DNA of 64,000 nucleotides from positions 71,677 through 135,676 of the forward strand of contig JAJEEM010000059.1 in the NCBI GenBank assembly GCA_022820995.1, read 5' to 3'. The position numbers and the translations under genes are program-made. The DNA comes from Gemmatimonadota bacterium (lineage in GTDB: Bacteria; Gemmatimonadota; Gemmatimonadetes; Palauibacterales; Palauibacteraceae). Below, one piece after another: positions 1 through 50,003 of the stretch (position 1 is its first letter; every line of letters starts with the position of its first letter). Below the pieces are notes generated by a model, which saw nothing but the letters and a program-made list of their open reading frames with translations, did not search any database and was not told where the DNA came from.

Positions 1-478
1 CCGTTGACGGCCGCGACCACGGGCTGCGGCAACGTCTGGAGGGCCCGGTACACCCGCTGTCCCCTGTCGATGTAATCGCGGCGCCTTCGCTGCGAGCCCG
101 CGGGCGCGGCTCGTACTCCTCGGGACACCCGCTCCGCGGAATCGACATGGACGCGGCGCCCGTCCACGGGGGGCGTTTCGTCGCGGTGCGCCTTGAGGTC
201 CGCCCCGGAGCAGAATCCGCGGCCCGTGCCCGTCAGGATGACGACGCGGGTCTCCAGGTCGGCCGCGATGCGCGCGAGTTCGGCCTCCAGCATCTCGTAC
301 ATGGGGAGGCTGACGGCGTTGAGGCGATGGGGGCGGTTGAGGCGGAGGATCCGGACGGGACCCTCCGCCTCGACCAGAAGCGGGACTTCGGCTGCGGCGC
401 TCAGCTTCCCGCGTCGTCCGTCGTCGTGACGGGCTTCGCCGGCTTCACGTGCAGCTCGAGCCAGCGATCGGTCTCCCA
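1..478 (-). CDS. enoyl-CoA hydratase/isomerase (crotonase) family, partial: C-terminus lies beyond window start; start codon uncertain
   Basis: Reverse-complement translation of ~220-330 gives ...LETRVVILTGTGRGFCSGADLKAHRDE..., the classic crotonase oxyanion-hole motif; upstream reads ...EVPLLVEAEGPVRILRLNRP. Frame runs off position 1. Not in ORF track because incomplete. Start (GTG ~478?) is a guess. Confidence 0.55.
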
Positions 479-2872
479 CAGGACGTGCAGGACCGACTCG
501 CGCGCGGCGTACCCGTGGCTCTCGGCCGGCAGAAACACGAGCCGAGCCGTCGCGCCCAGCCCCTTCAGCGCCGCGTAGAAGCGCCGCGACTGGATGGGGA
601 AGGTGCCCGAGTTGTTGTCGTCCTCGCCGTGGATGATGAGGATCGGCTCGTTCACCTTGTCCGCGTGCATGAAGGGCGACATGTACAGGTAGAGGTCCGG
701 GTCCTCCCAGAAGAGCCGCTGCTCTCGCTGGAAGCCGAACGGCGTCAGCGTCCGGTTATAGGCGCCGCTCCGCGCCACGCCGGCCCGGAAGATGTCCGAG
801 TGGGCGAGCAGGTTGCCGGTCATGAAGGCGCCGTAGGAGTGTCCGCCGACGCCGACCCGATCCGGATCCACGACCCCGCGCCGCACGCCCTCGTCGACCG
901 CCGCCCGGGCGTTCGCCACCAACTGCTCGCGGAAGGAGTCGTTGGGCTCCGCGTCGCCCTCGCCGATGACCGGCATCGACGCATTGTCGAGCACCGCATA
1001 ACCCCGGGTCACGTACGGGACGGCGCCGCCGTAGGGGATCCGCGTGAACTGGTACGGCGAGTCGCGTCGCTGGCCGGCCGCCGCCGCGCTCTTGAACTCG
1101 GTCGGATACGCCCACACGAAGGTCGGGAGCGGACCATCGCGCTCCTGGTCGTAGTCCGCCGGCAGGTAGAGCGTCGCGGAGAGCGGGATGCCGTCCCCGC
1201 GCTCGTACTGGATCGCCTCCTTGCGGATGCCGGCAAACTGCGGATACGGGTGCGGGAACTCGGTCACCGCGCTGGTCGTCCCCCGCTCGAGGTCGCGCAG
1301 GAAGTAGTTCGGGGGCTCGTCCACGGACTCCCGGCGCGTCATCAGCCGCCCGTCTTCGAGGAGCGTGACCACGCCCTCGTAGTACGGCGCCTCGGAGCGG
1401 AACAACTCCTCTTCCTCTCCCGTCTCGAGGTTCCGCTTCCTGAGGAAGGGGCGGTTGCCTTCGGGCGACGCGCCCTGCCCCGCCAGGTAGATCGAGGATC
1501 CCCCGTCGGCGGTCATGAGGACGCCCTGGCCGCGCTCATTCGTCCTGAACATCGGGAAGCCGGGGTCGTTGTACCGGTCCTCCGTCTGCAGATCGAAGAT
1601 CAGCTCCATCTCGCCCGGGGCGTCCGGATCGATTCGGTAGGTGCGCTGCTGGCGGGTGGAGAACCAGTTCTCGTTCACGAAGGCGAACCCCTCCTCCGCC
1701 CACATCACGCCGCCGTAGCGGAGCGGGAGCGAGGCGATCGCCGCGGGTTCGCCGGAGAAGGGCGCCGCGTGCATGAACACCCGGTCGCGGATGTCCGCCT
1801 CGGCGAGGGCATCGCCGCCGTCCTGCGCCTCCGTCCAATACAGCGTCGCGTCCGCGTCGGCGCGCCACGAGATCGACCGCACGCCCGTCGGGACCGACCC
1901 GAACGACGTGGGGACGCCATCCTGGAGCGGGAGTTCGGCCACCCGGTGAACCACGTTCCCCTGCGTGTCCCACACCTCGATCGTGCTCGGGAAGCGGGAC
2001 GCCGGCACCTGGTACGAGTACGGCCGGTGAGTCGTCTGCACGAGCAGATGCTCGCCATCCGGCGAAGGCGAGGCGCCCGAGAAGATCGACGGATCTCCGA
2101 CCATGGCCACGGATCCGTCGAGGTCGACGCGGGCCAGCTGCGACGTCGAGTAGTACTCGTAGAGCGCCTCATCGTGCTGGTCCTGCAGCAGGTCCTGGTA
2201 GGTGCGGGCGGGGGCGGCTTCCCCCGAGGTCTCCTCGATCATGGGCGCCGTCGGAACGATCGGCTCGGCGGGCGCGGGGCCGCGGCCGGGCGGCACCGCC
2301 CTGGCGTAGAGGAAGTCTCCTTCCGGCGACCAGTTGAAGGGAGCCCCGAAGCCCACGTTCACGAGATCGAGGTCCGACAGCCGCCGCGCCGCCGCGGACG
2401 CGACGTCGAGGACCCAGAGCTGTACGGCCGAGTCGGTGTCGTGCGTGAACGCCACCGCGCTCCCGTTCGGCGACCAGCGCGTGTTGCGAATGCGCGGATT
2501 CTCCGGCAGGCCGGTCACGGCGCGCTCTTCCCCGTCGAAGGTGCGAAGCGCGAGGCCGTTCGAGGGCCGCGCGCGGCTGGGACCGTTCGTGCGCGGGTTG
2601 ATGCGCAGTCCGGCGATCCGCAGTTCGGGCGCGGCGACCTCGGCGATCGACGGCAGGCTCGGCCGCATCGTAAGCAGCATCACCGACTCGTCGGGACTCA
2701 GGCTGATCCCCGGGGTCGCCGGGGCGTCGACGAGCGCGGCGAGTTCGGCGGCCGGCGTCTGATAGCCGTCCGCACCCTCCTGCGCGGCGACATCCGCCGT
2801 GCCCGCGGCGAGAAGGAACGCGATGGAGAGGGAGAATCGAAGGATTCCGGGACTGCTGTGATCGTGTCGCAT
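401..2872 (-). CDS. S9 family serine peptidase (prolyl oligopeptidase/dipeptidyl aminopeptidase type) with N-terminal TolB-like beta-propeller; secreted
   Basis: Track ORF 401..3397 trimmed to ATG at 2872 (MRHDHSSPGILRFSLSIAFLLAAGTADVAAQEG = signal peptide). C-terminal GGHSYGAFMTGN (GxSxG nucleophile), DKVNEPILIIHGEDDNNSGT (Asp), ESHGY (His). N-terminal half has WSPDGS/TolB-like repeats. Confidence 0.85.
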   Translation of the reverse strand: MRHDHSSPGILRFSLSIAFLLAAGTADVAAQEGADGYQTPAAELAALVDAPATPGISLSPDESVMLLTMRPSLPSIAEVAAPELRIAGLRINPRTNGPSRARPSNGLALRTFDGEERAVTGLPENPRIRNTRWSPNGSAVAFTHDTDSAVQLWVLDVASAAARRLSDLDLVNVGFGAPFNWSPEGDFLYARAVPPGRGPAPAEPIVPTAPMIEETSGEAAPARTYQDLLQDQHDEALYEYYSTSQLARVDLDGSVAMVGDPSIFSGASPSPDGEHLLVQTTHRPYSYQVPASRFPSTIEVWDTQGNVVHRVAELPLQDGVPTSFGSVPTGVRSISWRADADATLYWTEAQDGGDALAEADIRDRVFMHAAPFSGEPAAIASLPLRYGGVMWAEEGFAFVNENWFSTRQQRTYRIDPDAPGEMELIFDLQTEDRYNDPGFPMFRTNERGQGVLMTADGGSSIYLAGQGASPEGNRPFLRKRNLETGEEEELFRSEAPYYEGVVTLLEDGRLMTRRESVDEPPNYFLRDLERGTTSAVTEFPHPYPQFAGIRKEAIQYERGDGIPLSATLYLPADYDQERDGPLPTFVWAYPTEFKSAAAAGQRRDSPYQFTRIPYGGAVPYVTRGYAVLDNASMPVIGEGDAEPNDSFREQLVANARAAVDEGVRRGVVDPDRVGVGGHSYGAFMTGNLLAHSDIFRAGVARSGAYNRTLTPFGFQREQRLFWEDPDLYLYMSPFMHADKVNEPILIIHGEDDNNSGTFPIQSRRFYAALKGLGATARLVFLPAESHGYAARESVLHVLWETDRWLELHVKPAKPVTTTDDAGS

Positions 2873-3064
2873 GGTACAGGCTCCAGCTGATGACCGACGT
2901 CGCGTGGTTCGTGATCGTGGCAACGGTGGCATAGTCCGAACCACCCGTAGCGCACGCAAGACGCGCCGCTGTCGCGCGCGCGACCCCGGTGCGATAGCGT
3001 TTCCGGGCCCGCGGGCGGCAGCGGCGTTCGCAGGCGCACACAAAAGGGAAAGGACGACAGGGAG

Positions 3065-3769
3065 ATGCGGATGATGGACGCACGTTACCTCCGGCTGTTT
3101 GCGGCGGGCGCCCTGGTGGCGGCGGGGTCGGCCGGCTGCGCACCCGGGGGAGATACCGAAGATGCCGACGCCTCCGCCGCGGCGGCCGAGGAGGCGGCTC
3201 AGGTGACGTCCCAAGGGGCGGCCCAGGTGGCGCTCGGGCCCGTGGATGGGCACGACCTGCCTCCGGCGGACCTCGAGCGGGTGCTCGCCGGCAGCCCCGC
3301 GCCCGACTTCACCGCCCTTTCGAGCACGGGCGAGCCGATCACCCTCTCGGACTACCGCGGAGAGAAGGACGTCATCCTCTTCTTCTACCGCGGCCACTGG
3401 TGACCGTACTGCGCAAAGCAGCTCGGAGAGCTGCGAGACTTCATGACGCCCGAACAGCGCGAACGGACCCAGCTCCTGGCGATCGCCCCGGACAGCCCCG
3501 AAGACATCGGACTAATGGTCGACCGCGTCCTCGAGGACTACGACTACGCCCTCGACTTCCCGCTGCTGTCGGATGACGGATCCGCGATCACCTACCGCTA
3601 CGGACTCCTGAACGAGGAGGACGGGCGCGGGCGCCAGATCCCGCACCCCACGACCTACGTCATCGACATGGACGGGACGGTGCGCTGGAGCTTCACCGAG
3701 GTGGACTACCGCGTCCGCCCCGAGCACGCCGACATCCTGGCCGCGCTCGAAGCCCTGGAGCAGCCGTAG
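3065..3769 (+). CDS. lipoprotein thioredoxin-fold redoxin (AhpC/TSA, PRX-like2 type) with in-frame TGA at 3401..3403 replacing first Cys of CxxC: candidate selenoprotein (U-P-Y-C); alternatively pseudogene/sequencing error
   Basis: Track ORFs 3065..3403 and 3443..3769 are in the same frame (both coordinate mod 3 = 2), separated only by TGA. Continuous translation ...APDFTALSSTGEPITLSDYRGEKDVILFFYRGHW[TGA]PYCAKQLGELRDF...FPLLSD...TYVIDMDGTVRW reads as a complete redoxin fold. N-term MRMMDARYLRLFAAGALVAAGSAGC = lipobox. Confidence 0.6.
3404..3434 (+). promoter_or_regulatory. candidate bacterial SECIS-like stem-loop immediately 3' of in-frame UGA
   Basis: gcagctc-gga-gagctgc perfect 7-bp stem at 3418..3434, 15 nt after UGA, G-containing apical loop; small cugc-gcaaa-gcag hairpin precedes it. 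Confidence 0.35.
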
Positions 3770-3783
3770 CGGGCCGTGGCAGA

Positions 3784-3811
3784 AGCCCCGCTGCGCTCGA
3801 GCGGCGGGGCT
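3784..3811. terminator. GC-rich inverted repeat between convergent genes (bidirectional terminator candidate, no T-tract)
   Basis: a-gccccgc-tgcgctcgagcg-gcggggc-t, palindromic around ctcgag; sits between redoxin stop (3769) and SDR stop (3810). Confidence 0.4.
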
Positions 3812-4751
3812 ACCGCGAGGCGGCGTCCTCCAGCCGGCAGCGGCCCATGCGGCAGGTGAGGCCGGTGAGTTCCTGACTCAGCTCCCGGAGGCGGGCGCGC
3901 GCCTCCGGGTCGTACGCCTGGGCGTTGGCCTCGGCGGGCCTGAGCCCGCTGAAGTACTGCCCGCTCTCGAAGTCATCGGAGTCGACGACCTGCATCGTCG
4001 CGTCGGCGCCCTCGGCGATGGTGGCGCGCGGGGTCGCGCCCAGCCGCCGCACCATGCCGGTCGGCATGTACGTCGCCGGATGGAGTGAGCCCACCACGAT
4101 GCCCGTCCCGGCCAGGTCCTCCGCGAGGTCGTGCGTGAACATGATCTGGGCGAGCTTGCTCTGTGCGTAGGCGCGGCGCCCGCTGAAATCGTTCTCGATC
4201 ATCACGTCGTCGAAGTCGATCGGCGCCTGTGCGCCGGACGACACGTTCACGATGCGCGACGGCGTGCTCTCGAGCAGCCGCGGCATCAGCAGGTGCGTCA
4301 GGAGGAAGGTGGAGAGGTAGTTCACCTGGAAGCGGTACTCGTGCCCGTCCTCTGTGACCCACCGCTCGTCCGGCGCCGACCCGAACCCCGCGTTGTTGAT
4401 CAGGATGTCCATCCGGTCGTAGTCGGCCAGCAGCGTCTCGGCGAAGGTCCGGACCTCCGCGAGCGACGCGAAGTCCGCGCGGTAGAAGCGGGCGCTCCCC
4501 GGCCCCGCCGCGTTGATGGCGTCCACCACCTCCGCTCCGCGCTCCTCGCTGCGCCCGTGGACGATGACGTGATCGCCCCGCGCGCCCAGCCGCAGGGCGA
4601 GTTCCCGGCCGAGGCCGGAAGTGGATCCGGTGACCAGGACCACCTTCTGTCCGGCGGCCGGCGCAGGGGTCGCCTGGGCCATGACTTCCGCGACGGAAGC
4701 GGACCAGGCGGACACGAGGACGGCAGCGGCCATCGCGATTTTTGTTGTCAT
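3810..4751 (-). CDS. short-chain dehydrogenase/reductase (SDR) with signal peptide
   Basis: Track ORF 3810..5219 trimmed to ATG 4751 (MTTKIAMAAAVLVSAWSASVA...), GGAGGA SD 8 nt upstream. VVLVTGSTSGLGRELA (TGxxxGxG), NNAG, YAQSKLA (YxxxK). Confidence 0.85.
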   Translation of the reverse strand: MTTKIAMAAAVLVSAWSASVAEVMAQATPAPAAGQKVVLVTGSTSGLGRELALRLGARGDHVIVHGRSEERGAEVVDAINAAGPGSARFYRADFASLAEVRTFAETLLADYDRMDILINNAGFGSAPDERWVTEDGHEYRFQVNYLSTFLLTHLLMPRLLESTPSRIVNVSSGAQAPIDFDDVMIENDFSGRRAYAQSKLAQIMFTHDLAEDLAGTGIVVGSLHPATYMPTGMVRRLGATPRATIAEGADATMQVVDSDDFESGQYFSGLRPAEANAQAYDPEARARLRELSQELTGLTCRMGRCRLEDAASR

Positions 4752-8379: not shown

Positions 8380-8585
8380 TCTCTACAGCCCGGAAAAAAG
8401 ATGAAGCTGTGCACGGTGTTGCGCGTGTGCGAGGTGTTTCGAACTGCCTTCTACTTGAACAACCGCTGCCGTGAAGATCAAGGTTCGCCGGCCAGGGCGG
8501 TTGACCCTCGTCGAACCGTGTCGGAGCTTCGCCGGAACCGAAGACCACGTGTGGGCGATGTCGGAGAGAAGCGGGTAAGTCGCGA

Positions 8586-44007: not shown

Positions 44008-46299
44008 TCAGTCGGAGGGCGAGGCGAAACTGCCGAGTTGCGCGAAGTGGTTTGCGCGCCTGTAGGCCCATTCCGCAGCCTCCAAGTTCCCGTGCAACTC
44101 CTCGGAAGCTCCCTGGAAGATGTGCGCCGTGTAGTAGGCGCCGGGGATGTTCGACCTGGTGGAAGGATCCGGCCACTCGTCCCATGCCAGGACGTCATCC
44201 ACGAGGAACACGCCTTCCAGCAGTTGTCCGGTGCGGATCCGGTCGTTCCACGCCGGCAGCCCCGAACCCCGGAAGTACTCGCCCAGGTCGACGAGCGCCT
44301 CGGATGCCTGGAGCGGACCGTCCACGAGTTTGAAGGCGAGGCCCTGCCGGACGAGGTGCGGCTGCAGCTGCCAACGGTCCCACAGGGGCCTCGCCGTGGA
44401 CGCGAAGTACACCGGCCGGTCCCCCAGAGACTGCCGCGCGATCTGGAACACGCGGATATCGGCTGGCGATAGAACGTCGCCTTCCCTCAGCGGACCCGTG
44501 ATCCAGTCGGAAAGCCGATAGGTCGAGTCCTCGGATATGGACTGCCCCCGCGAGAGGGCATCGATCCCCGTACCGGATGGAGGGATGGCCGAGCGCGTCG
44601 GCGGGGTCGCGGCCATCTCCGCGTACAGGTCCGCCGCCGTCGCCGGGTCGAACGGCCGCTGGCACACGATCGTCGTGGGGGCGTCCTCGGGCGACTCTCC
44701 CGGCCCGCACGGCTTCGTCAGCCGCCGCAGTTGCCGGTGGTACCAGTCCGTCCCCAGGTACGACTGCACGATCACGGTCACGTCGCGCCGGATCCCCTCG
44801 ACTTCCTGCAGATACCAGAGCGGGAAGGTGTCGTTGTCGCCGTAGGTGAAGAGCACGGCGTAGGGTTCGACGGACTGCAGCATGTTGTAGGCGAGGTTGC
44901 GGGCGGCGCGGTCCCCGCTCCGGTCGGCCCGGGCGAAGTTGAAGAAGAAGGGGATGAGGCCGAGCGCGAGGAGCGCCGCCGCCTTCCGGTGCCGGGGGCC
45001 GAACCCCGCCGGCACCCACTCAGGATCGCGCGCCGGGGCAGATGCCGTCCAGCGTCCCCACAGGGCGGCGAGTCCCAGCCCGGCGTAGATCCCCCACATC
45101 TGGAAGCCGATGATGAAGAAGTAGTCGCGTTCGCGGACCTCGTGGGCGTCGAGGAGCGGCGCCTCCTCCCAGTACATCGAGTAGCCGTATTTGAAGTTCA
45201 GGTAGTAGACGAGCAGCAGCGTGACGGTGAAGAAGAGCGTGCCCGCGTAGACGAACGTCTTCCGGTCGCGCCGGAGATGGGTCCACATCCCGACCAGCGC
45301 GAGGAACAGGAAGAGGATGCTCGCGGCGACCCGCGCGCCCGGCGGCAGCGAGCGCGCCCACTGCCAGTCGAAGTACTGCCAGTAGTTCGCGTACTGGGCC
45401 GAGAGCGGCGCCTGGCGCAGCGTGACCGGGGTCGGCGCGTACTGGGCGCGGATCAGTGAGAGGGCGAGCGGCTCGCACGCCACGGCGAGCTTGCTCTGCC
45501 CGTAGGGGTCGTCGATCCGCCGCGGCGTGACGGCCGAGAGGAGCGTCGGACACTCGGGGTCCGCCTCGTCGATGACCGGGTTCTGCGCCGAGCGGATGGG
45601 GACGAAGAGGAACTGCAGCGAGTACCCCACCGCGAGCAGCGCGACGGCGGGCCCCAGGACGCGCGGGTTCAGGGCGGCCCGCCAGCGGTGCACCAGCACG
45701 AACGCGGCCAGCGCCAGCGCCGGGAGCATCGACATCGTGTGGTTCGCCCACCCCAGCCCGAGCACGAGCGCGATGAGCAGGAGGAGGCGGTTGCCGCGCA
45801 CCGTGTCCGCTCGGTCCATCCAGACCATGGCGAGGTAGCTCACGAGGGCCACGACGAACATCGAGAGAGGATAGACCTTCTCGTTCAGGTTCGACTGCGT
45901 CCACACGGTGAAGGCGGTGGCCCCGATCCACACGGCGGCGACCGCGGCGACGAGCACCTCGTGCCGGTTCTCGCGGAAGCGCCCGACGATGCGGACCACA
46001 GCCAGGAACCAGAAGAAGCTCGCCCCCGCGGAGAGGGTGGCGCCGAGCGCGTTGATCCGCAGCGCGACGGGGAGGCCCGTGAACCCGGTCAGGAGGTCCC
46101 ACGCGCGGCCGACGACGACGAAGAGCGGATTCCCCGGCGGGTGGGGGAGCCCGAGGATGTGCGCCGTGGTCACGTACTCCGACGCATCCCAGAACCCGAC
46201 CGTCGGAGCCAGCGTCAGGAGATAGAGGACCCAGATCGTCGCCGCGGTCAGCAGCCCCCAGGCCCGCAGCGTCAGCCGGCCGACCTTCTCCCGCTCCAC
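44008..46299 (-). CDS. DUF2723-family (GT-C-fold, protein O-mannosyltransferase-like) membrane protein with C-terminal TPR-like region
   Basis: GFWDASEYVTTAHILGLPHPPGNPLFVVVGR = DUF2723 N-terminal hallmark; start GTG 46299 immediately after paralog stop (track's 46329 is TTG). Confidence 0.7.
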   Translation of the reverse strand: MEREKVGRLTLRAWGLLTAATIWVLYLLTLAPTVGFWDASEYVTTAHILGLPHPPGNPLFVVVGRAWDLLTGFTGLPVALRINALGATLSAGASFFWFLAVVRIVGRFRENRHEVLVAAVAAVWIGATAFTVWTQSNLNEKVYPLSMFVVALVSYLAMVWMDRADTVRGNRLLLLIALVLGLGWANHTMSMLPALALAAFVLVHRWRAALNPRVLGPAVALLAVGYSLQFLFVPIRSAQNPVIDEADPECPTLLSAVTPRRIDDPYGQSKLAVACEPLALSLIRAQYAPTPVTLRQAPLSAQYANYWQYFDWQWARSLPPGARVAASILFLFLALVGMWTHLRRDRKTFVYAGTLFFTVTLLLVYYLNFKYGYSMYWEEAPLLDAHEVRERDYFFIIGFQMWGIYAGLGLAALWGRWTASAPARDPEWVPAGFGPRHRKAAALLALGLIPFFFNFARADRSGDRAARNLAYNMLQSVEPYAVLFTYGDNDTFPLWYLQEVEGIRRDVTVIVQSYLGTDWYHRQLRRLTKPCGPGESPEDAPTTIVCQRPFDPATAADLYAEMAATPPTRSAIPPSGTGIDALSRGQSISEDSTYRLSDWITGPLREGDVLSPADIRVFQIARQSLGDRPVYFASTARPLWDRWQLQPHLVRQGLAFKLVDGPLQASEALVDLGEYFRGSGLPAWNDRIRTGQLLEGVFLVDDVLAWDEWPDPSTRSNIPGAYYTAHIFQGASEELHGNLEAAEWAYRRANHFAQLGSFASPSD

Positions 46300-46300
46300 G

Positions 46301-48628
46301 TCAGTTGGCGGGCGCGCCGAGACCCGCAAGGAACCCGAAACGGTCCGCGCGCTGGTACGCCCGCTCGGCGGCTTCCACGTCGCCCAAGTGTTCCTCCGTC
46401 ATCCCCTGCAGGTAGTACGCGAGGTAGTACTGGGCCGGGATGCTCGACTGCGTGGACGGCTCGGGCCACTCCTCCCACCCCAGCACGTCCTCGACCTCGA
46501 ACACCTCCCACAGCAGTTCCGCCGTGCGCGCCCGGTCGTTCCACGTCGGCGATATCGTGCCCGGCATGTACTCGCGCAGGTCCACGAGGTCGTCCGTCGC
46601 CTCGAGCGGCGCGTCCACGAGCTTGAAGGCGAGCCCGTGCCGGACGAGGTGCGGTTGCAGCCCCCACTTCCCGTACACGGGCGGGGCGGTCGCCGCGAAG
46701 TAGACCGGCCGGTCCCCCAGCGACTGCTGCATGATGTGGAAGACGAGGATGTCGGGGTACAGAATCGAGTCCCCGCCGCGCACCGTCGCCGTCACCGCGC
46801 TCGAGACCTGGAACGCCGTGTCCCGGGCGACCGCGATCCCCGGCGTGAGCCCGTCGATCTGCGCGTCGTTCAGTGCGATGATCGAGCGCGTCGGAGACGG
46901 TGCCGCCGCGTCGGCATACGGGCTCGCCGCATTCGCTTCATCGAAGGGACGCTGACACACAATGGTCGTCGGGGAGTCCGCCGCGGACACCCCCGGCTCG
47001 CACGGCGTCGTCAGCGACCGCAACTGCTTCGGATACCAGTCCGTGCCGAGGTAGGAGTGGACGATGACGGTCACGTCGCGCCGAATCCCCTCCACCTCCT
47101 GCAGGTACCAGAGCGGGAAGGTGTCGTTGTCCCCGTTCGTGAACAGCACGGCGTACGGCTCGACCGACTGCAGGATGTTGTACGCCCAGTCGCGGGCCGC
47201 GCTGTCCTCCGTCCGGTCCGCGCGCGCGAAGTTGAAGAGGAAGGGGACGAGCGCGACGGCGAGGATCGGCGCCGCCCTCCGGTGCCGCGCGCTGAACCCG
47301 GCCGGGCGGTCCTCCGGCAGACTCGTCCGGTCCGGTGGCACCGCGCTCCTCCGTCGATCCGGGACGGACCAGTTGCCCCACAGCGCGACGAGCCCCAGCC
47401 CGGCGTAGATCCCCCACAGCTGGAAGCCGATGATGTAGAAGTAGTCCCGCTCCCGGACCTCGTGCTGGAGGATGTTCGGCACCTCCTCCAGGTAGAGGGA
47501 GTAGCCGTGCTTGAAATTCAGGTAGTAGACGAGGAGCAGCGTGACCGTGAAGAAGAGCGTGCCCGCGTAGACGAAGGTCTTCCGGTCGCTCCGGAAGTGG
47601 GTCCACAGACCGAGGAGCGCGAGGAAGAGGAAGAGCATGCTGACGGCGACCCGGCCGCCCGGCGGCAGCGAGCGCGCCCACTGCCAGTCGAAGTACTGCC
47701 AGTAGTTGGCGTACTGGCGGTGAAGCGGAGCCTGGCGCTGCGTGACCGGCCCCGGGCCGTACTGGTCGCGGATGAGCGAGAGCGCAAGCGGCTCGCAGGC
47801 CACCGAGAGCTTGCTGTTCCCGAACCGGTCGTCGATCACGCTCGGCGTGACGGCCGAGAGGAGCGTCGGACACTCCGGGTCCGCCTCGTCGATGATCGGG
47901 TTCTGCGCCGACCGGATGGGGACGAAGAGGAGCTGCACCGAGTAGCCGACCGCGAAGAGCGCGATGCCCAGCCCGAGGACGCGCGGGTTCAGGGCGGCCC
48001 GCCAGCGGTGGAGGAGGACGAAGAGCGCGAGCGCCGGGCCCGGCAGCAGCGACATGGTGTGGTTCGACCAGCCCAGTCCGAGCAGGAGCGCGATGAGCAC
48101 GAGCAGCCGGTTCCCGCGGGCCGTGTCCGCCTCGTCCACCCACACCATCGTCAGGTAGCTCACGAGCGAGACGATGAAGAGGGAGAGCGTGTAGACCTTT
48201 TCGTTCAGATTCGACTGGGTCCAGACGGTGAAGGCGGTCGCCCCGATCCAGACCGCGACCATCGAGGCCACGAGGATCTCGTGCCGGTTCTCGCGGAAGT
48301 GCGCGACCATGCGCGCCACGGCGAGGAAGGAGAAGAAGCTCGCCCCGGCGGAGAGCGTCGCGCTGAGCACGTTGATGCGGAGCGCGACCGGGAGGCCGGT
48401 GAAGCCGAGCAGGAGATCCCACACGCGGCCCACGAGGACGAAGAACGGGTTCCCCGGCGGGTGCGGGAGCCCGAGGATGTGCGCCGTGGTCACGTACTCC
48501 GACGTGTCCCAGAAGCCGGTGGTCGGCGCGATCGTGAGCAGATAGAGCGACCACACGGCGAGGGCCGTCACCAGCCCCCACAGACGCAGCGTCAGCGGAC
48601 CGATCTTCTCGCGCTCGATACCGTTCAT
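46301..48628 (-). CDS. DUF2723-family membrane protein, tandem paralog of 44008..46299
   Basis: GFWDTSEYVTTAHILGLPHPPGNPFFVLVGR; collinear with downstream copy. Confidence 0.7.
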   Translation of the reverse strand: MNGIEREKIGPLTLRLWGLVTALAVWSLYLLTIAPTTGFWDTSEYVTTAHILGLPHPPGNPFFVLVGRVWDLLLGFTGLPVALRINVLSATLSAGASFFSFLAVARMVAHFRENRHEILVASMVAVWIGATAFTVWTQSNLNEKVYTLSLFIVSLVSYLTMVWVDEADTARGNRLLVLIALLLGLGWSNHTMSLLPGPALALFVLLHRWRAALNPRVLGLGIALFAVGYSVQLLFVPIRSAQNPIIDEADPECPTLLSAVTPSVIDDRFGNSKLSVACEPLALSLIRDQYGPGPVTQRQAPLHRQYANYWQYFDWQWARSLPPGGRVAVSMLFLFLALLGLWTHFRSDRKTFVYAGTLFFTVTLLLVYYLNFKHGYSLYLEEVPNILQHEVRERDYFYIIGFQLWGIYAGLGLVALWGNWSVPDRRRSAVPPDRTSLPEDRPAGFSARHRRAAPILAVALVPFLFNFARADRTEDSAARDWAYNILQSVEPYAVLFTNGDNDTFPLWYLQEVEGIRRDVTVIVHSYLGTDWYPKQLRSLTTPCEPGVSAADSPTTIVCQRPFDEANAASPYADAAAPSPTRSIIALNDAQIDGLTPGIAVARDTAFQVSSAVTATVRGGDSILYPDILVFHIMQQSLGDRPVYFAATAPPVYGKWGLQPHLVRHGLAFKLVDAPLEATDDLVDLREYMPGTISPTWNDRARTAELLWEVFEVEDVLGWEEWPEPSTQSSIPAQYYLAYYLQGMTEEHLGDVEAAERAYQRADRFGFLAGLGAPAN

Positions 48629-48788
48629 TACGCCCCTGCTACGCTCTCCCGGTCGGGAAGTTCGTTGGGAAGATACCGCCTCGGGCCTGTCGGGTCCCGC
48701 GCCGGCCCGGCTCGGCGATTCCGACTGGCCGACGCGGCGAGCCGAAACTAGCCGGCGGCCCGAATGCGAGCGAGCGGCTGCCGGACCC

Positions 48789-50003
48789 TCAGGGGTCGGA
48801 TCGGTCGAGCGGCCACAGTTGGACGTATTCGATTCCGAGTTCGTCGTATGCGCCGCCCAGGAGGTAGTCGGGGCCGATCTCGAAGATGCGCAGGCCCGGC
48901 GGGGTCTCCAGGAAACCGAGGACCCGGCCCTCGGGGTCGAAGACCGTCCAGACCCGGTCCGTCTCGCCCGGCTGGCGGTATTCCTCGACCCAGAGATGCT
49001 CCAGTTCGTCCACCCGGATGCTGTTGAAGGCGGGGAAGGCGTCCGTCAGCGGCATGTCGGCGACTTCGGCCAGCGCGGCGGACCGATCCGCGCCGGACAT
49101 GCTCTCGTACCGCCGGGCGAAGTAGGCGTTGAGATCCGCGCGGGTCGGGCGCCGAGCCTCGTGGCCGCGCCGCACGATCCGAGTCAGATTGCCGTCCACG
49201 GCGTGGGCCCGGAACTCGTAGCGGTCGTTCGTGCCGATCAGGACGAGGTCCCCCCACGCGGCGTAGATGGGGTCGCGGCCGAAGGGGTGCGGCCGGACGG
49301 ACATGTCTTCGGCATTGGCGGACCATTCGCTGCCCGGATGCGTGCCGAGCGTCGAATGCAGGCCGCCATCCGGCTCGACGATGCCGTACTCCACGGTTCG
49401 GCGCGACAATCCGTCCGGGAACTCGCCGCCGGCGAAGCGAAAACCGGAGGAGGACACGACGAACAGCTTCCCGTCCGGCAGGACTCCGGCCAGGCGCTGG
49501 TAGGGATCGGGCAGCCGGGACGTGCGGCCGTGCTCTCCGTTCGCGTCGAAGACGGAGAACCTCCGCGCGCCCGTGTCCGATGCCGAGATGGAATCGCCGG
49601 GCCAGCCCCCGACGCCGGAGGGGCCCCCCAGGCTGAACTCCCCCGGCCCGTCCCCCTGCCCTCCCCAGGATTGCAGGTGAGTCCCGGACGCGTCGAACGC
49701 CCTCAGTTCACCGGAACCCGCGTTCGCGACCAGGATCCTTCCGTCCGGCAGCCGGGTCGCGTCCGCGACCCGAAACAGCTCGTACGCAGGATCGGCCTCG
49801 ACGGCGCCGATGGAGAGGGTGGGCTCCGCACCGACCCGCCAGCCGAGCCGCGAATCCGCCGCGGGCTCCTCGTTCTCCACGATCGTCACGCCCGCGCTGT
49901 CCCGCACCACCGATTGAAGGCCCGAGTCCATGGCCAGGGCGCTCCCGCCGGCGGCGAGGAAACCCGCCGCCGCAAACAAGCCGCCGAGAAGGAAGTTCCG
50001 CAT
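48789..50003 (-). CDS. 6-bladed beta-propeller lipoprotein, paralog type A (A1)
   Basis: MRNFLLGGLFAAAGFLAAGGSALA; SVVRDSAGVTIVENEEP...ELRAFDASG...WPLDRSDP. Confidence 0.65.
   Translation of the reverse strand: MRNFLLGGLFAAAGFLAAGGSALAMDSGLQSVVRDSAGVTIVENEEPAADSRLGWRVGAEPTLSIGAVEADPAYELFRVADATRLPDGRILVANAGSGELRAFDASGTHLQSWGGQGDGPGEFSLGGPSGVGGWPGDSISASDTGARRFSVFDANGEHGRTSRLPDPYQRLAGVLPDGKLFVVSSSGFRFAGGEFPDGLSRRTVEYGIVEPDGGLHSTLGTHPGSEWSANAEDMSVRPHPFGRDPIYAAWGDLVLIGTNDRYEFRAHAVDGNLTRIVRRGHEARRPTRADLNAYFARRYESMSGADRSAALAEVADMPLTDAFPAFNSIRVDELEHLWVEEYRQPGETDRVWTVFDPEGRVLGFLETPPGLRIFEIGPDYLLGGAYDELGIEYVQLWPLDRSDP

What the first reader, a model, noticed from the sequence alone, without database searches (positions are those of the whole stretch)
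3065..3769. Candidate selenocysteine-containing lipoprotein redoxin (W-U-P-Y-C in place of CxxC)
Two track ORFs (3065..3403, 3443..3769) share a frame and are separated only by TGA 3401..3403. Read-through translation gives one intact thioredoxin-fold redoxin: ...DYRGEKDVILFFYRGHW-[UGA]-PYCAKQLGEL...FPLLSD...TYVIDMDGTVRW. The TGA sits exactly where the resolving-motif first Cys belongs (FYRGHWCPYC in PRX-like2/AhpC-TSA proteins), and Sec-for-Cys in UxxC redox motifs is the standard pattern for bacterial selenoproteins (Prx-like/thiol-disulfide oxidoreductase families). The N-terminal lipobox suggests periplasmic localisation. The alternative is a single A/C sequencing error or a pseudogene (TGA vs TGC).
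Basis: partly seen in the sequence, partly recalled or inferred. Interest (0 to 1): 0.72.

Follow-up and report, generated by a model that had tools for sequence, protein, structure and literature searches.

The report
Unannotated exported selenocysteine redoxin gene
The apparent stop codon that splits this gene is almost certainly read as selenocysteine, giving an intact, exported, lipid-anchored thioredoxin-fold redox protein of an already known selenoprotein type that gene-callers miss throughout the phylum Gemmatimonadota.

Summary
Window 3065 (more likely 3071) to 3769 (+) is one AhpC/TSA-fold gene with a single in-frame TGA (3401-3403) in the motif FFYRGHW-U-PYC. The same column is TGA in all 23 orthologues from Palauibacter/Longimicrobiales genomes and in 78 of 80 metagenomic relatives. 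It is Cys (WCPYC) in a large Gemmatimonas-type clade. Purifying selection is equal on both sides of the TGA, and the downstream ATG is not conserved. A hairpin (3418-3434, loop GGA, 21 nt from UGA to loop) meets the published bacterial SECIS model. Its stem codons are frozen in 86 distinct TGA forms (CAG 86/86; CTG 83/84), its loop is G[G/U]N in 84/86, and its terminal pairs covary. Cys forms encoding the same QLGEL peptide use different codons. A published KEGG table scores selA, selB and selD present in the same Palauibacter species. The protein is exported, as a lipoprotein in this branch and with a cleavable signal peptide in most relatives. It lacks the peroxiredoxin Thr and Arg, so it is most likely a thiol/selenol-disulfide oxidoreductase. 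Cys orthologues sit next to DsbD, but the donor in Palauibacter is unknown. It is a new member of the known 'Prx-like (PF00578, UxxC)' selenoprotein family.

The parts
3060..3064 (+). Shine-Dalgarno-like GGGAG
   Evidence: It lies 6 nt before ATG 3071 and directly abuts ATG 3065, which favours 3071 as the start. This is an inference.
3065..3769 (+). Complete coding sequence of the selenoprotein: 234 codons from ATG 3065 or 232 from ATG 3071. Sec is codon 113 counted from 3065, and the true stop is TAG 3767-3769.
   Evidence: One AhpC/TSA domain spans the TGA, and dN/dS is equal upstream and downstream of it.
3065..3139 (+). Lipoprotein signal peptide: basic n-region, hydrophobic LFAAGALVAAG, and lipobox S-A-G-C with Cys25 at 3137-3139.
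   Evidence: The Cys is conserved in all 23 genome orthologues; a lipobox is also present in the marine metagenomic branch, while other relatives have a type-I signal peptide ending at LGPxDG.
3140..3232 (+). Acidic/Ala-rich low-complexity tether between the lipidated Cys and the folded domain.
   Evidence: its length and sequence vary among orthologues; low pLDDT at the domain's N-terminus.
3233..3766 (+). Thioredoxin/peroxiredoxin-fold domain, starting at the family-invariant LGPxDG motif.
   Evidence: Pfam. AlphaFold2 model with pLDDT 87.5. Foldseek best match is M. tuberculosis AhpE, E 1e-12, TM 0.72-0.85.
3401..3403 (+). In-frame UGA read as selenocysteine (Sec113), the first position of W-U-P-Y-C.
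   Evidence: TGA in 24/24 genome sequences and 78/80 metagenomic relatives. Cys in the Gemmatimonas-type clade.
3410..3412 (+). Cys116, the second residue of the UxxC motif. It is the only invariant Cys and sits at the column of the peroxiredoxin peroxidatic Cys.
   Evidence: In the model it lies in the first turn of helix 59-70.
3418..3434 (+). Bacterial SECIS-type hairpin GCAGCUC-GGA-GAGCUGC: stem 3418-3424/3428-3434, loop 3425-3427. It is embedded in codons K-Q-L-G-E-L-R.
   Evidence: 7-bp stem, loop GGA, 21 nt from UGA to loop, -10.1 to -11.5 kcal/mol. It meets all four criteria quoted in PMC13188914; synonymous-site freezing, covariation, and loss in Cys forms.
3638..3667 (+). I-P-H-P-T-T-Y-V-I-D motif. 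Pro195 (3647-3649) occupies the column of the catalytic Arg of peroxiredoxins, as the cis-Pro does in thioredoxin-like oxidoreductases.
   Evidence: One search aligns it to AhpE (IANRGTFVVD). It is invariant in the family. The cis-Pro role is inferred from general knowledge of the fold.
3784..3811 (.). 11-bp GC-rich hairpin after the stop codon, between the convergent redoxin and SDR genes. It may be a bidirectional terminator, but it has no U tract.
   Evidence: -38.5 kcal/mol for the 62-nt context, z -1.9; no canonical intrinsic terminator called.

Best explanation
This is an intact selenoprotein gene. Ribosomes reaching UGA 3401-3403 insert selenocysteine, directed by the hairpin 3418-3434, which would recruit SelB carrying Sec-tRNA(Sec).

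The product is exported through the Sec translocon and lipid-modified on Cys25. It is held on a flexible acidic tether in the cell envelope.

Its thioredoxin-fold domain carries a W-U-P-Y-C redox centre. The selenolate sits at the exposed N-terminal position and attacks an oxidised substrate (a disulfide, a sulfenic acid or possibly a peroxide). Cys116 then resolves the intermediate into an intramolecular selenenylsulfide, which has to be re-reduced by an envelope reductant.

Shown here: conservation of the TGA, continued coding constraint after it, a conserved and RNA-constrained hairpin, Sec/Cys pairing with orthologues, export signals, the fold, and absence of the peroxiredoxin Thr and Arg.

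Taken from a published table: selA, selB and selD in the same species.

Inferred: SelB binding, the chemistry, the substrate and the electron donor. The donor inference (DsbD-type transporter) rests on gene neighbourhood of the Cys orthologues.
For: (a) TGA occupies the identical column in window plus 23 genome orthologues at 58-99% identity, whereas the true terminators are TAG or TAA, with TGA once. It is TGA in 78/80 metagenomic relatives at 43-66% identity.

(b) dN/dS is 0.09-0.36 upstream and 0.10-0.39 downstream of the TGA, with no other stops or frameshifts. The downstream ATG 3443 is Leu in L015-L023, so the 3' part has no start codon of its own.

(c) The Sec column aligns with the first Cys of CxxC in homologues and orthologues.

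(d) The hairpin meets the published bSECIS criteria: loop 3-9 nt, stem 4-16 bp, G in the first two loop positions, 16-37 nt spacing, MFE <= -7.5 (PMC13188914).

(e) In 86 distinct TGA sequences, Gln+6 is CAG 86/86 (neighbouring Gln positions are about 34% CAA) and Leu+10 is CTG 83/84 (neighbouring Leu positions are about 29% CTG). The loop starts GG in 81 and GU in 3.

(f) On 82 distinct rows, 88.3% of cells pair against 83.3% in shuffles. There are 27 double-change cells against 14, and the covariation score is 0.097 against 0.046. Each was reached by 0 of 500 shuffles. Both terminal pairs switch to U-A, from G-C at the outer pair and from C-G at the inner pair.

(g) Cys forms lose the signal. 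Their loop codon becomes K/R/S/T/A/Q, and those that keep the QLGEL peptide use TTG, GAA or CTC codons. None of 4 distant Cys homologues has a compliant hairpin.

(h) selD, selA and selB are scored present in 43, 41 and 38 of 48 Palauibacterales MAGs, including the type genomes of the species of L002, L006, L007, L010 and L011 (PMC10469786 Table S3).

(i) Export: the lipobox is conserved and signal peptides are family-wide.

(j) The AF2 model places Sec just before, and Cys116 within, the first turn of helix alpha-1. The Prx Thr is replaced by Sec and the Arg by Pro.

(k) DsbD is the divergent neighbour of 5 of 6 Cys-form orthologues. DsbD-family transporters are known to feed envelope Trx-fold reductases and a peroxiredoxin (PMC3322552).
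Against: There is no direct evidence of selenium incorporation.

tRNA-Sec was not searched for, and none lies in the window. The sel genes are known only from a published KO table, not from my own search.

The hairpin is thermodynamically unremarkable for this GC content: z = -0.87 in its 40-nt context, and about 5% of all UGA trinucleotides in the window have one as good. Its five core pairs are nearly invariant, which gives no covariation information, and they overlap a conserved peptide. Among the genome orthologues alone there is only one compensatory change. Only 32 of 74 metagenomic TGA forms pass my strict perfect-stem version of the model.

On function: genus Palauibacter has no dsbD (K04084) and no ccdA (K06196) in the KO table, and no DsbD lies near any Sec-form locus. 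The reductive cycle therefore lacks an identified donor in this organism.

The closest solved structures and the best (sub-threshold) NCBIfam hits are peroxidases.
Confidence: 0.9

Rival explanations
1. The same selenoprotein, but working as a peroxidase. The selenol reduces H2O2 or organic hydroperoxides directly (as in glutathione peroxidase, whose Sec occupies the same structural position of the fold) and Cys116 resolves the selenenic acid. On this reading it is an envelope peroxide scavenger rather than a protein-disulfide reductase.
For: The best structural and sequence neighbours are peroxiredoxins: AhpE, BCP and PrxQ. The top NCBIfam hit is thiol peroxidase, though well below its cut-off. 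Cys116 sits at the peroxidatic-Cys column. A DsbD-family-dependent envelope peroxiredoxin (PprX) is documented (PMC3322552). GPx-type selenoproteins are listed with a UxxT motif (PMC1088965).
Against: The two other residues of the peroxiredoxin catalytic triad are missing: Thr is replaced by Sec and Arg by Pro195. The W-C/U-x-x-C plus P-T-T-[YF]-V-I-D pattern is that of thioredoxin-like thiol-disulfide oxidoreductases; the ResA model scores 7.6e-12, also sub-threshold. The literature files the UxxC PF00578 selenoproteins as thiol:disulfide oxidoreductases, though only by prediction.
Confidence: 0.3
2. The UGA is read through without selenocysteine, for example by near-cognate tRNA-Trp or tRNA-Cys suppression, or by Cys-tRNA(Sec). 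The conserved hairpin would act only as a read-through stimulator.
For: Nothing tested here identifies the inserted residue chemically. tRNA-Sec was not searched for.
Against: The codon sits exactly at a redox Cys column with Cys orthologues, which is the signature of Sec/Cys pairs. The hairpin has the position and the G[G/U] loop of SelB-dependent SECIS elements. selA, selB and selD are retained in these genomes although the commonest selenoprotein, FdhA, is absent from genus Palauibacter. Trp at the nucleophilic position of a CxxC centre would inactivate it.
Confidence: 0.04
3. The gene is broken or split. Either it is a pseudogene or assembly error (TGA in place of TGC), or it yields two separate polypeptides (112 aa and 108 aa).
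For: Automatic gene calls treat it this way. A Logan contig carries only the 112-aa 5' fragment as a gene, and no full-length protein was returned from 5.8 billion sequences.
Against: The TGA is identical in 24 independent genome assemblies, several of them complete chromosomes, and in 78 metagenomic contigs. Purifying selection is equal on both sides. The 13 codons between the TGA and ATG 3443 are conserved and include the essential P-Y-C. The ATG itself is Leu in many orthologues. Half a thioredoxin fold would not fold.
Confidence: 0.01

Closest known systems
Prx-like thiol:disulfide oxidoreductase selenoproteins (PF00578, UxxC/UxxU). These are 'Prx-like protein' in the Sargasso Sea survey and 'Prx-like 1' in GOS; the example cited in the reviews is WP_010940744.1.
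   Same: AhpC/TSA (PF00578) domain. Thioredoxin-like UxxC in place of the TxxU of Sec-peroxiredoxins. Sec/Cys pairs with many Cys homologues. A bSECIS hairpin directly downstream. Common in marine metagenomes (PMC1088965, PMC2398784, PMC9312934, PMC13188914).
   Different: I could not retrieve and align the reference sequences, so identity of the subfamily is untested. This clade is defined by an export signal, the LGPxDG start of the mature domain, W-U-P-[YF]-C, QLG[EK]L and PHPTT[YF]VID. It belongs to Gemmatimonadota, a phylum not mentioned in the four selenoproteome papers I searched for it (search 32). Those papers do not discuss export or lipidation.
Cys-form orthologues: 'peroxiredoxin family protein' of Gemmatimonas phototrophica (P0200) and other Gemmatimonadaceae.
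   Same: 43-53% identical over the whole mature domain. Same LGPxDG, FYRGxW-x-P-x-C and IPHP[AT]TYVID motifs, and same export signal.
   Different: Cys instead of Sec. The hairpin is degraded and the loop codon is free to vary. They have a cleavable signal peptide rather than a lipobox. DsbD is encoded next door in 5 of 6 loci, which is not the case for any Sec form examined.
Mycobacterium tuberculosis AhpE (PDB 1xvw, a 1-Cys peroxiredoxin) and the BCP/PrxQ peroxiredoxins.
   Same: They are the best sequence (E 4e-13) and fold (Foldseek E 1e-12, TM 0.72-0.85) matches among solved structures. Cys116 aligns with the peroxidatic Cys.
   Different: AhpE has T-G-I-C and the catalytic Arg116, whereas this protein has U-P-Y-C and Pro at the Arg column. 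AhpE is cytoplasmic and contains no Sec.
Extracytoplasmic thioredoxin-like reductases fed by DsbD/CcdA/ScsB (ResA, TlpA, CcmG/DsbE) and the envelope peroxiredoxin PprX.
   Same: Exported or membrane-anchored thioredoxin fold. A W-C-x-x-C type centre and a Pro-Thr-Thr-aromatic-hydrophobic motif at the cis-Pro position. Genetic linkage to DsbD in the Cys orthologues (PMC3322552).
   Different: All NCBIfam scores are far below the cut-offs: ResA 45 against 170, TlpA 17 against 230, DsbE 16 against 123. The overall fold is closer to peroxiredoxins. Sec replaces the nucleophilic Cys. No DsbD or CcdA is annotated in genus Palauibacter.
PrxU, the Sec-containing peroxiredoxin (NCBIfam NF040737), and SelL-related redox proteins (NF040769).
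   Same: They are selenoproteins of the same superfamily and give weak hits of 36-37 bits.
   Different: In PrxU the Sec is at the peroxidatic position (TxxU), whereas here it is three residues earlier. Both scores are far below the cut-offs of 270 and 120.

Membership tests
Prx-like thiol:disulfide oxidoreductase selenoprotein family (as defined in PMC9312934 / PMC1088965) | AhpC/TSA domain (pfam00578) | tested here: met
   PF00578, E 9.3e-30, 103.6 bits against a cut-off of 26. The match is one stretch (residues 76-208) spanning the TGA.
Prx-like thiol:disulfide oxidoreductase selenoprotein family | Thioredoxin-like UxxC motif (Sec first, Cys fourth) in place of TxxU | tested here: met
   the motif is W-[UGA]-P-Y-C. 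The UGA column is the first Cys of CxxC in homologues and the Thr of TxxC in a canonical Prx (P0086). The second Cys is invariant.
Bacterial selenoprotein gene (general) | In-frame UGA conserved among orthologues, with coding constraint continuing downstream and Cys-containing homologues at the same column | tested here: met
   TGA in 24/24 genome sequences and 78/80 metagenomic relatives. dN/dS is equal on both sides. The Gemmatimonas-type clade has Cys.
Bacterial selenoprotein gene (general) | bSECIS stem-loop directly downstream: loop 3-9 nt, stem 4-16 bp, G in the first two loop positions, 16-37 nt from UGA, MFE <= -7.5 (PMC13188914) | tested here: met
   stem 7 bp, loop GGA, spacing 21 nt, -10.1 to -11.5 kcal/mol, present in 23/24 genome sequences; the constraint is at the RNA level. 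Caveats: about 5% of random UGAs in the window do as well, and only 32 of 74 metagenomic forms pass my strict scan.
Bacterial selenoprotein gene (general) | Sec-decoding genes selA, selB and selD in the same genome | tested here: met
It rests on the KEGG table of PMC10469786 (Table S3). K01008, K01042 and K03833 are all scored 1 in GCA_009836005.1, GCA_009841015.1, GCA_009845855.1, GCA_012270965.1 and RHO1_bin_50. These are the type genomes of the species of L002, L011, L007, L010 and L006. None of the three genes lies in the window.
Bacterial selenoprotein gene (general) | tRNA-Sec (selC) in the genome | not tested
   There is no tRNA in the window. Whole genomes could not be scanned with the remaining caps.
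Bacterial selenoprotein gene (general) | Selenium actually incorporated at the UGA | not testable with these tools
   This needs 75Se labelling or mass spectrometry.
Canonical peroxiredoxin (Prx: PxxxTxxC plus catalytic Arg) | Thr three residues before the peroxidatic Cys | tested here: not met
   that column is Sec (UGA) here, and it is Thr in P0086 and AhpE.
Canonical peroxiredoxin (Prx) | Conserved catalytic Arg before the beta-strand (R-x-T-F-V-I-D) | tested here: not met
   One search aligns IPHPTTYVID with AhpE IANRGTFVVD, so the Arg column is Pro195. This Pro is invariant in the family.
Canonical peroxiredoxin (Prx) | Score above the cut-off of a curated peroxiredoxin model | tested here: not met
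   the best is NF006960 at 56.7 bits against a cut-off of 140. PrxU scores 36 against 270 and PrxQ 34 against 260.
Bacterial lipoprotein | Signal peptide ending in a lipobox with an invariant Cys | tested here: met
   MRMMDARYLRLFAAGALVAAGSAG-C25, with the Cys conserved in 23/23 genome orthologues; the marine metagenomic branch has it too. Processing by Lgt and LspA is not testable here.
DsbD/CcdA-dependent envelope reductases (ResA/TlpA/CcmG type) | A DsbD-family or CcdA electron donor in the genome or next to the gene | tested here: inconclusive
   DsbD is adjacent to 5 of 6 Cys-form orthologues. None lies in the window or in any Sec-form flank. K04084 and K06196 are absent from genus Palauibacter in the published KO table.
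DsbD/CcdA-dependent envelope reductases (ResA/TlpA/CcmG type) | Score above the cut-off of the curated ResA, TlpA or DsbE models | tested here: not met
   ResA 45.5 against 170, TlpA 17 against 230, DsbE 15.8 against 123.

The most novel reading that the evidence does not exclude
This exported UxxC redoxin would be one of the few selenoproteins, possibly the principal one, that keeps the Sec machinery alive in sponge-symbiotic Palauibacter, which retain selA, selB and selD but have no formate dehydrogenase. It would define a phylum-wide Gemmatimonadota envelope selenoprotein family in which Sec is the ancestral state and the SECIS hairpin dictates part of the protein sequence (QLG[EK]L). In Palauibacter it would be recycled by an as yet unknown envelope electron pathway, since neither DsbD nor CcdA is annotated there.
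Probability: 0.25. Interest if true: 0.55.

Novelty: new member of a known kind. Interest (0 to 1): 0.4.

Why it matters
(1) Annotation. The gene is invisible to current pipelines. Prodigal-type callers emit a 112-aa fragment. No full-length protein closer than 34% identity was returned from 5.8 billion sequences. The protein falls below every NCBIfam cut-off, including the selenoprotein-aware models. At least 100 loci in genomes and metagenomes are affected.

(2) Biology of a poorly known phylum. The paper that described Palauibacterales lists selA, selB and selD in a supplementary table but never discusses selenium. This gene gives that machinery a concrete client in a lineage lacking FdhA.

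(3) It is a clean natural example of an RNA signal constraining protein sequence. The loop residue is Gly (GGN) or Val (GUN) in Sec forms and free to vary in Cys forms. This makes it a good system for SECIS and SelB specificity studies.

(4) It places a selenol in the oxidising cell envelope of aerobic marine symbionts, which raises the question of how it is kept reduced.

Tried and rejected
- Rfam, at gathering thresholds on the whole window and at permissive E-values on 3300-3560, has no model that recognises this hairpin.
- ARAGORN finds no tRNA in the window.
- Pfam annotation of about 45 ORFs across the window found no selA, selB, selD or DsbD.
- A window-wide screen for other TGA-joined coding ORF pairs found only the target.
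- The thermodynamic significance of the hairpin alone is weak, so I did not rely on it.
- Covariation in the 24 genome sequences alone was insufficient: one compensatory change, 34 of 500 shuffles as high. That motivated the metagenome scan.
- Synteny gave no conserved partner for the Sec forms. The S9 peptidase and SDR neighbours are Palauibacter-specific, and a Pyr_redox_3 gene is upstream only in L019 and L023.
- The first protein search missed the Cys-form orthologues, so a second search with a Cys-form query was needed.
- No sigma-70 promoter or intrinsic terminator was called around the gene.
- I did not build a covariance model or use the 1.84-billion-protein representative search, because the questions they could answer were already settled.
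- I could not fetch the literature's reference sequence (WP_010940744.1) to test subfamily identity.
Full report
**Observation.** Window 3065-3769 (+) reads as one open frame with a single interruption, TGA at 3401-3403. With Cys substituted for the stop, the 234-residue product matches Pfam AhpC-TSA (E 9e-30) and Redoxin (E 3e-21) in one stretch that spans the TGA. It is the only pair of coding-like ORFs joined by a TGA in the 64-kb window. TGA terminates most long ORFs there, so the genetic code is standard. The window has 69% G+C and contains no tRNA and no Rfam family.

**Is the TGA real and is it translated?** One scan of species-representative genomes returned 23 orthologous loci. Eighteen are from Candidatus Palauibacter and close relatives (83-99% identity), and five are from other Longimicrobiales/Gemmatimonadota MAGs (58-63%). 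Several of these records are complete chromosomes.

All 23 have TGA at the same column, whereas the real terminator is TAG in most, TAA in two and TGA in one. Pairwise dN/dS is 0.09-0.36 upstream and 0.10-0.39 downstream of the TGA, with no other stop or frameshift.

The ATG at 3443 that begins the 3' 'track ORF' is Leu in L015-L023. The thirteen codons before it, including P-Y-C, are conserved. Sequencing error, pseudogene and split gene are thereby excluded.

One metagenome scan used two peptide patterns that flank the codon without including it. It found at least 568 relatives. Of the best 80 (43-66% identity), 78 have TGA and 2 have TGC. One of the two patterns includes the QLGE peptide and may enrich for Sec forms, so the 78:2 ratio should not be read as a population frequency.

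**The Sec/Cys column.** In alignments with Cys homologues, the UGA column is the first Cys of CxxC (for example FFRGHWCPYC in a Bradyrhizobium protein). It is the Thr of TxxC in a canonical peroxiredoxin. The second Cys is the only invariant Cys.

A search seeded with a Cys-form relative returned 296 proteins at E <= 1e-15, and the 120 listed are 65-100% identical to that query. The named ones are 'peroxiredoxin family protein' from Gemmatimonas phototrophica, Gemmatimonas sp., Gemmatimonadaceae and Gemmatimonadota. They are 43-53% identical to the window protein over the whole mature domain and read WCP[YF]C.

A rough neighbour-joining tree puts the 110 Gemmatimonas-type Cys forms in one clade. 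The Sec forms make up the rest of the family, and one further Cys form (L082) is nested among them. This suggests at least two Sec/Cys switches, but the direction is not settled.

**The RNA signal.** Fourteen nucleotides after the UGA lies GCAGCUC-GGA-GAGCUGC (3418-3434). It has a 7-bp stem, a GGA loop, 21 nt from UGA to loop, and -10.1 to -11.5 kcal/mol.

This satisfies the four criteria of the consensus bacterial SECIS model as quoted in a 2026 review: loop 3-9 nt, stem 4-16 bp, G within the first two loop positions (usually N1-G[G|U]-N-N2), 16-37 nt spacing, and MFE <= -7.5 (PMC13188914).

On its own this is weak evidence. About 11.5% of the 1168 UGA trinucleotides in the window have a compliant hairpin, and 5% have one as good. 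The 40-nt context folds no better than shuffles (z = -0.87).

The weight comes from comparison across 86 distinct TGA-form sequences:
- The Gln codon in the stem is CAG in 86/86, whereas neighbouring Gln positions are about 34% CAA.
- The second Leu is CTG in 83/84, whereas neighbouring Leu positions are about 29% CTG and use all six codons.
- The loop begins GG in 81, GU in 3 and GC in 2.
- The encoded loop residue is accordingly Gly or, rarely, Val.

A formal pair count on 82 distinct rows gives 88.3% paired cells against 83.3% in shuffles, 27 double-change cells against 14, and a covariation score of 0.097 against 0.046. Each observed value was reached by 0 of 500 shuffles. The outer pair switches G-C/U-A and the inner pair C-G/U-A, but these terminal pairs are open in 33-41% of sequences, and the five core pairs are almost invariant. 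The tool warns that such shuffles ignore phylogeny.

The most telling control is the Cys forms. Their loop residue is K, R, S, T, A, Q or G, and the last Leu may be Met. Those that still encode Q-L-G-E-L use other codons: L115 has CAG TTG GGC GAG TTG, and L116 has CAG CTG GGG GAA CTC. Four more distant Cys homologues have no compliant hairpin. The nucleotide constraint is therefore tied to the TGA rather than to the peptide.

Two caveats remain. Only 32 of 74 metagenomic TGA forms pass my strict perfect-stem version of the model. Two divergent members (L065, L068) carry a different hairpin.

Table S3 of the paper that described the order Palauibacterales is a KEGG presence matrix for 48 MAGs. 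It scores selD (K01008) in 43, selA (K01042) in 41 and selB (K03833) in 38. The gaps are concentrated in MAGs that are 50-61% complete.

All three genes are present in the type genomes of P. irciniicola, P. denitrificans, P. ramosifaciens, P. poriticola and P. rhopaloidicola. These are the species names carried by loci L002, L011, L007, L010 and L006, which all have the in-frame TGA. The paper's text never mentions selenium. tRNA-Sec remains untested.

**The protein.** The N-terminus is a lipoprotein signal (MRMMDARYLRLFAAGALVAAGSAG-C25), and its Cys is conserved in all 23 genome orthologues. An acidic/Ala-rich tether of variable length follows, and then the invariant LGPxDG motif.

In the wider family almost every member has an export signal ending at LGPxDG. 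Most soil and sediment relatives have an ordinary A-x-A signal peptide, while the marine branch has the lipobox. Export is thus a family trait, and lipid anchoring is specific to this branch.

An AlphaFold2 model (pLDDT 87.5, pTM 0.84) shows a thioredoxin/peroxiredoxin fold. Sec lies just before helix alpha-1 and Cys116 in its first turn. The best solved relatives are M. tuberculosis AhpE and the BCP/PrxQ peroxiredoxins.

Two of the three peroxiredoxin catalytic residues are missing, however. The Thr is the Sec itself, and the Arg column is Pro195 in the invariant I-P-H-P-T-T-Y-V-I-D. All NCBIfam hits, including the selenoprotein models PrxU and SelL-related, are far below their cut-offs.

**Mechanism.** The best-supported reading is a thioredoxin-like U-x-x-C centre. 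The selenolate attacks an oxidised substrate, Cys116 resolves the intermediate to a selenenylsulfide, and an envelope reductant regenerates the enzyme. This chemistry is inferred, not shown.

In the Cys-form clade the divergent neighbour is DsbD (DsbD_N, DsbD_TM and Thioredoxin_7 domains) in 5 of 6 loci. DsbD-family proteins are established electron donors for envelope thioredoxin-fold reductases and for the envelope peroxiredoxin PprX (PMC3322552). That supports a reductive role for the family.

For Palauibacter itself the donor is unknown. No DsbD lies in the window or in any Sec-form flank. The published KO table has no dsbD in any MAG and no ccdA in genus Palauibacter.

A peroxidase role remains a live alternative, which I put at about 0.3. 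In it the Sec would act as it does in glutathione peroxidase, which uses the same structural position.

**Comparison with what is known.** Bacterial 'Prx-like' selenoproteins with a PF00578 domain and a UxxC motif were described in 2005. They are among the more abundant selenoprotein families in marine metagenomes, with 22 sequences in the Sargasso Sea and 225 'Prx-like 1' in GOS. They remain 'predicted with high confidence' rather than experimentally verified (PMC1088965, PMC2398784, PMC1794560, PMC9312934, PMC13188914).

By the field's own definition (conserved domain plus Sec motif), this protein is a member. I could not align it with the published reference sequence, so whether it is the same subfamily is open. 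Gemmatimonadota is not mentioned in the four selenoproteome papers I searched for it, and a literature search pairing 'selenoproteome' with the phylum name found nothing.

**Verdict.** This is a real, conserved but unannotated selenoprotein gene of a known kind. What is new is modest:
- its occurrence across Gemmatimonadota;
- its exported, lipid-anchored form;
- the clear imprint of the SECIS element on the protein sequence;
- a concrete client for the Sec machinery of Palauibacter, which lacks FdhA.

Interest is moderate, and novelty is 'new member of a known kind'.

Noticed in passing
PMC10469786 Table S3 (KEGG sheet); genus Palauibacter columns 26-36, 38, 43-48: The sponge-associated genus Palauibacter keeps selA, selB and selD. 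It is scored 0 for formate dehydrogenase major subunit (K00123), 0 for ccdA (K06196), and has no dsbD (K04084) at all. This amounts to Sec machinery without the usual selenoprotein, and an envelope redoxin without the usual electron donors.
   Followed up: partly
L112 1-1357 (-), L113 1-1317 (-), L115 1-1331 (-), L116 1-1339 (-), L080 2-169 (-): DsbD (DsbD_N / DsbD_TM / Thioredoxin_7) is the divergent neighbour of the Cys-form orthologues in Gemmatimonas phototrophica and related MAGs. This linkage is absent from every Sec-form locus examined.
   Followed up: yes
L114 778-1344 (+); L115 2117-2731 (-): A second AhpC-TSA/Redoxin paralogue lies directly beside the Cys-form orthologue in two loci.
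   Followed up: no
L065 and L068, around 208-270: Two divergent TGA forms (IYRAHW-U-PYCKQQLAAF) lack the family hairpin. They have a different 5-bp hairpin, GCAGC-AGUUG/A-GCUGC, 16 nt after the UGA, and may represent a second SECIS solution in the same family.
   Followed up: partly
L023 1796-2797 (+); L019 408-1496 (+): A Pyr_redox_3 flavoprotein (pyridine nucleotide-disulphide oxidoreductase type) lies upstream of the Sec-form gene in two deep orthologues. In L023 it is immediately upstream on the same strand. A GCV_T-like gene is convergent downstream in L019 and L022.
   Followed up: no
window 15960-17396 (+): A class-V aminotransferase (Aminotran_5, E 1e-40), the fold of cysteine desulfurases and selenocysteine lyases. 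Its ORF overlaps the 3' part of the S9 peptidase ORF 13794-16469 (-), so the real start is probably further downstream.
   Followed up: no
window 8505-11753 (+): A single 1083-codon ORF combines a phosphotransferase (APH), a Peptidase_M23 and a class-III aminotransferase domain. This is an unusual fusion, if it is one gene.
   Followed up: no
window 44011-49045 (-): Two tandem large genes (796 and 914 codons), each with a TMEM260-like protein O-mannosyltransferase domain.
   Followed up: no
window 11796-12980 (-), 13039-13479 (-), 17688-18152 (+): A small cluster of defence or toxin-antitoxin-type genes: AAA_14/DUF4143 ATPase, a PIN-domain protein and a HEPN-domain protein.
   Followed up: no
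window 401-3397 (-) and 2169-3143 (-): Long antisense ORFs run across the 5' half of the redoxin gene. The 998-codon ORF is the S9 peptidase gene (real start about 2872) with a spurious upstream extension typical of 69% G+C DNA, not a second gene.
   Followed up: yes
window 3784-3811: An 11-bp GC-rich hairpin without a U tract lies between the convergent redoxin and SDR genes. The consensus scan calls no canonical promoter or terminator in 2800-3900.
   Followed up: partly
The word-indexed protein search with the full-length query returned nothing above 34% identity. Yet the exact 112-aa 5' fragment is on record in a Logan contig, and Cys orthologues at 43-53% identity exist. A negative result from that tool was misleading here.
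   Followed up: partly
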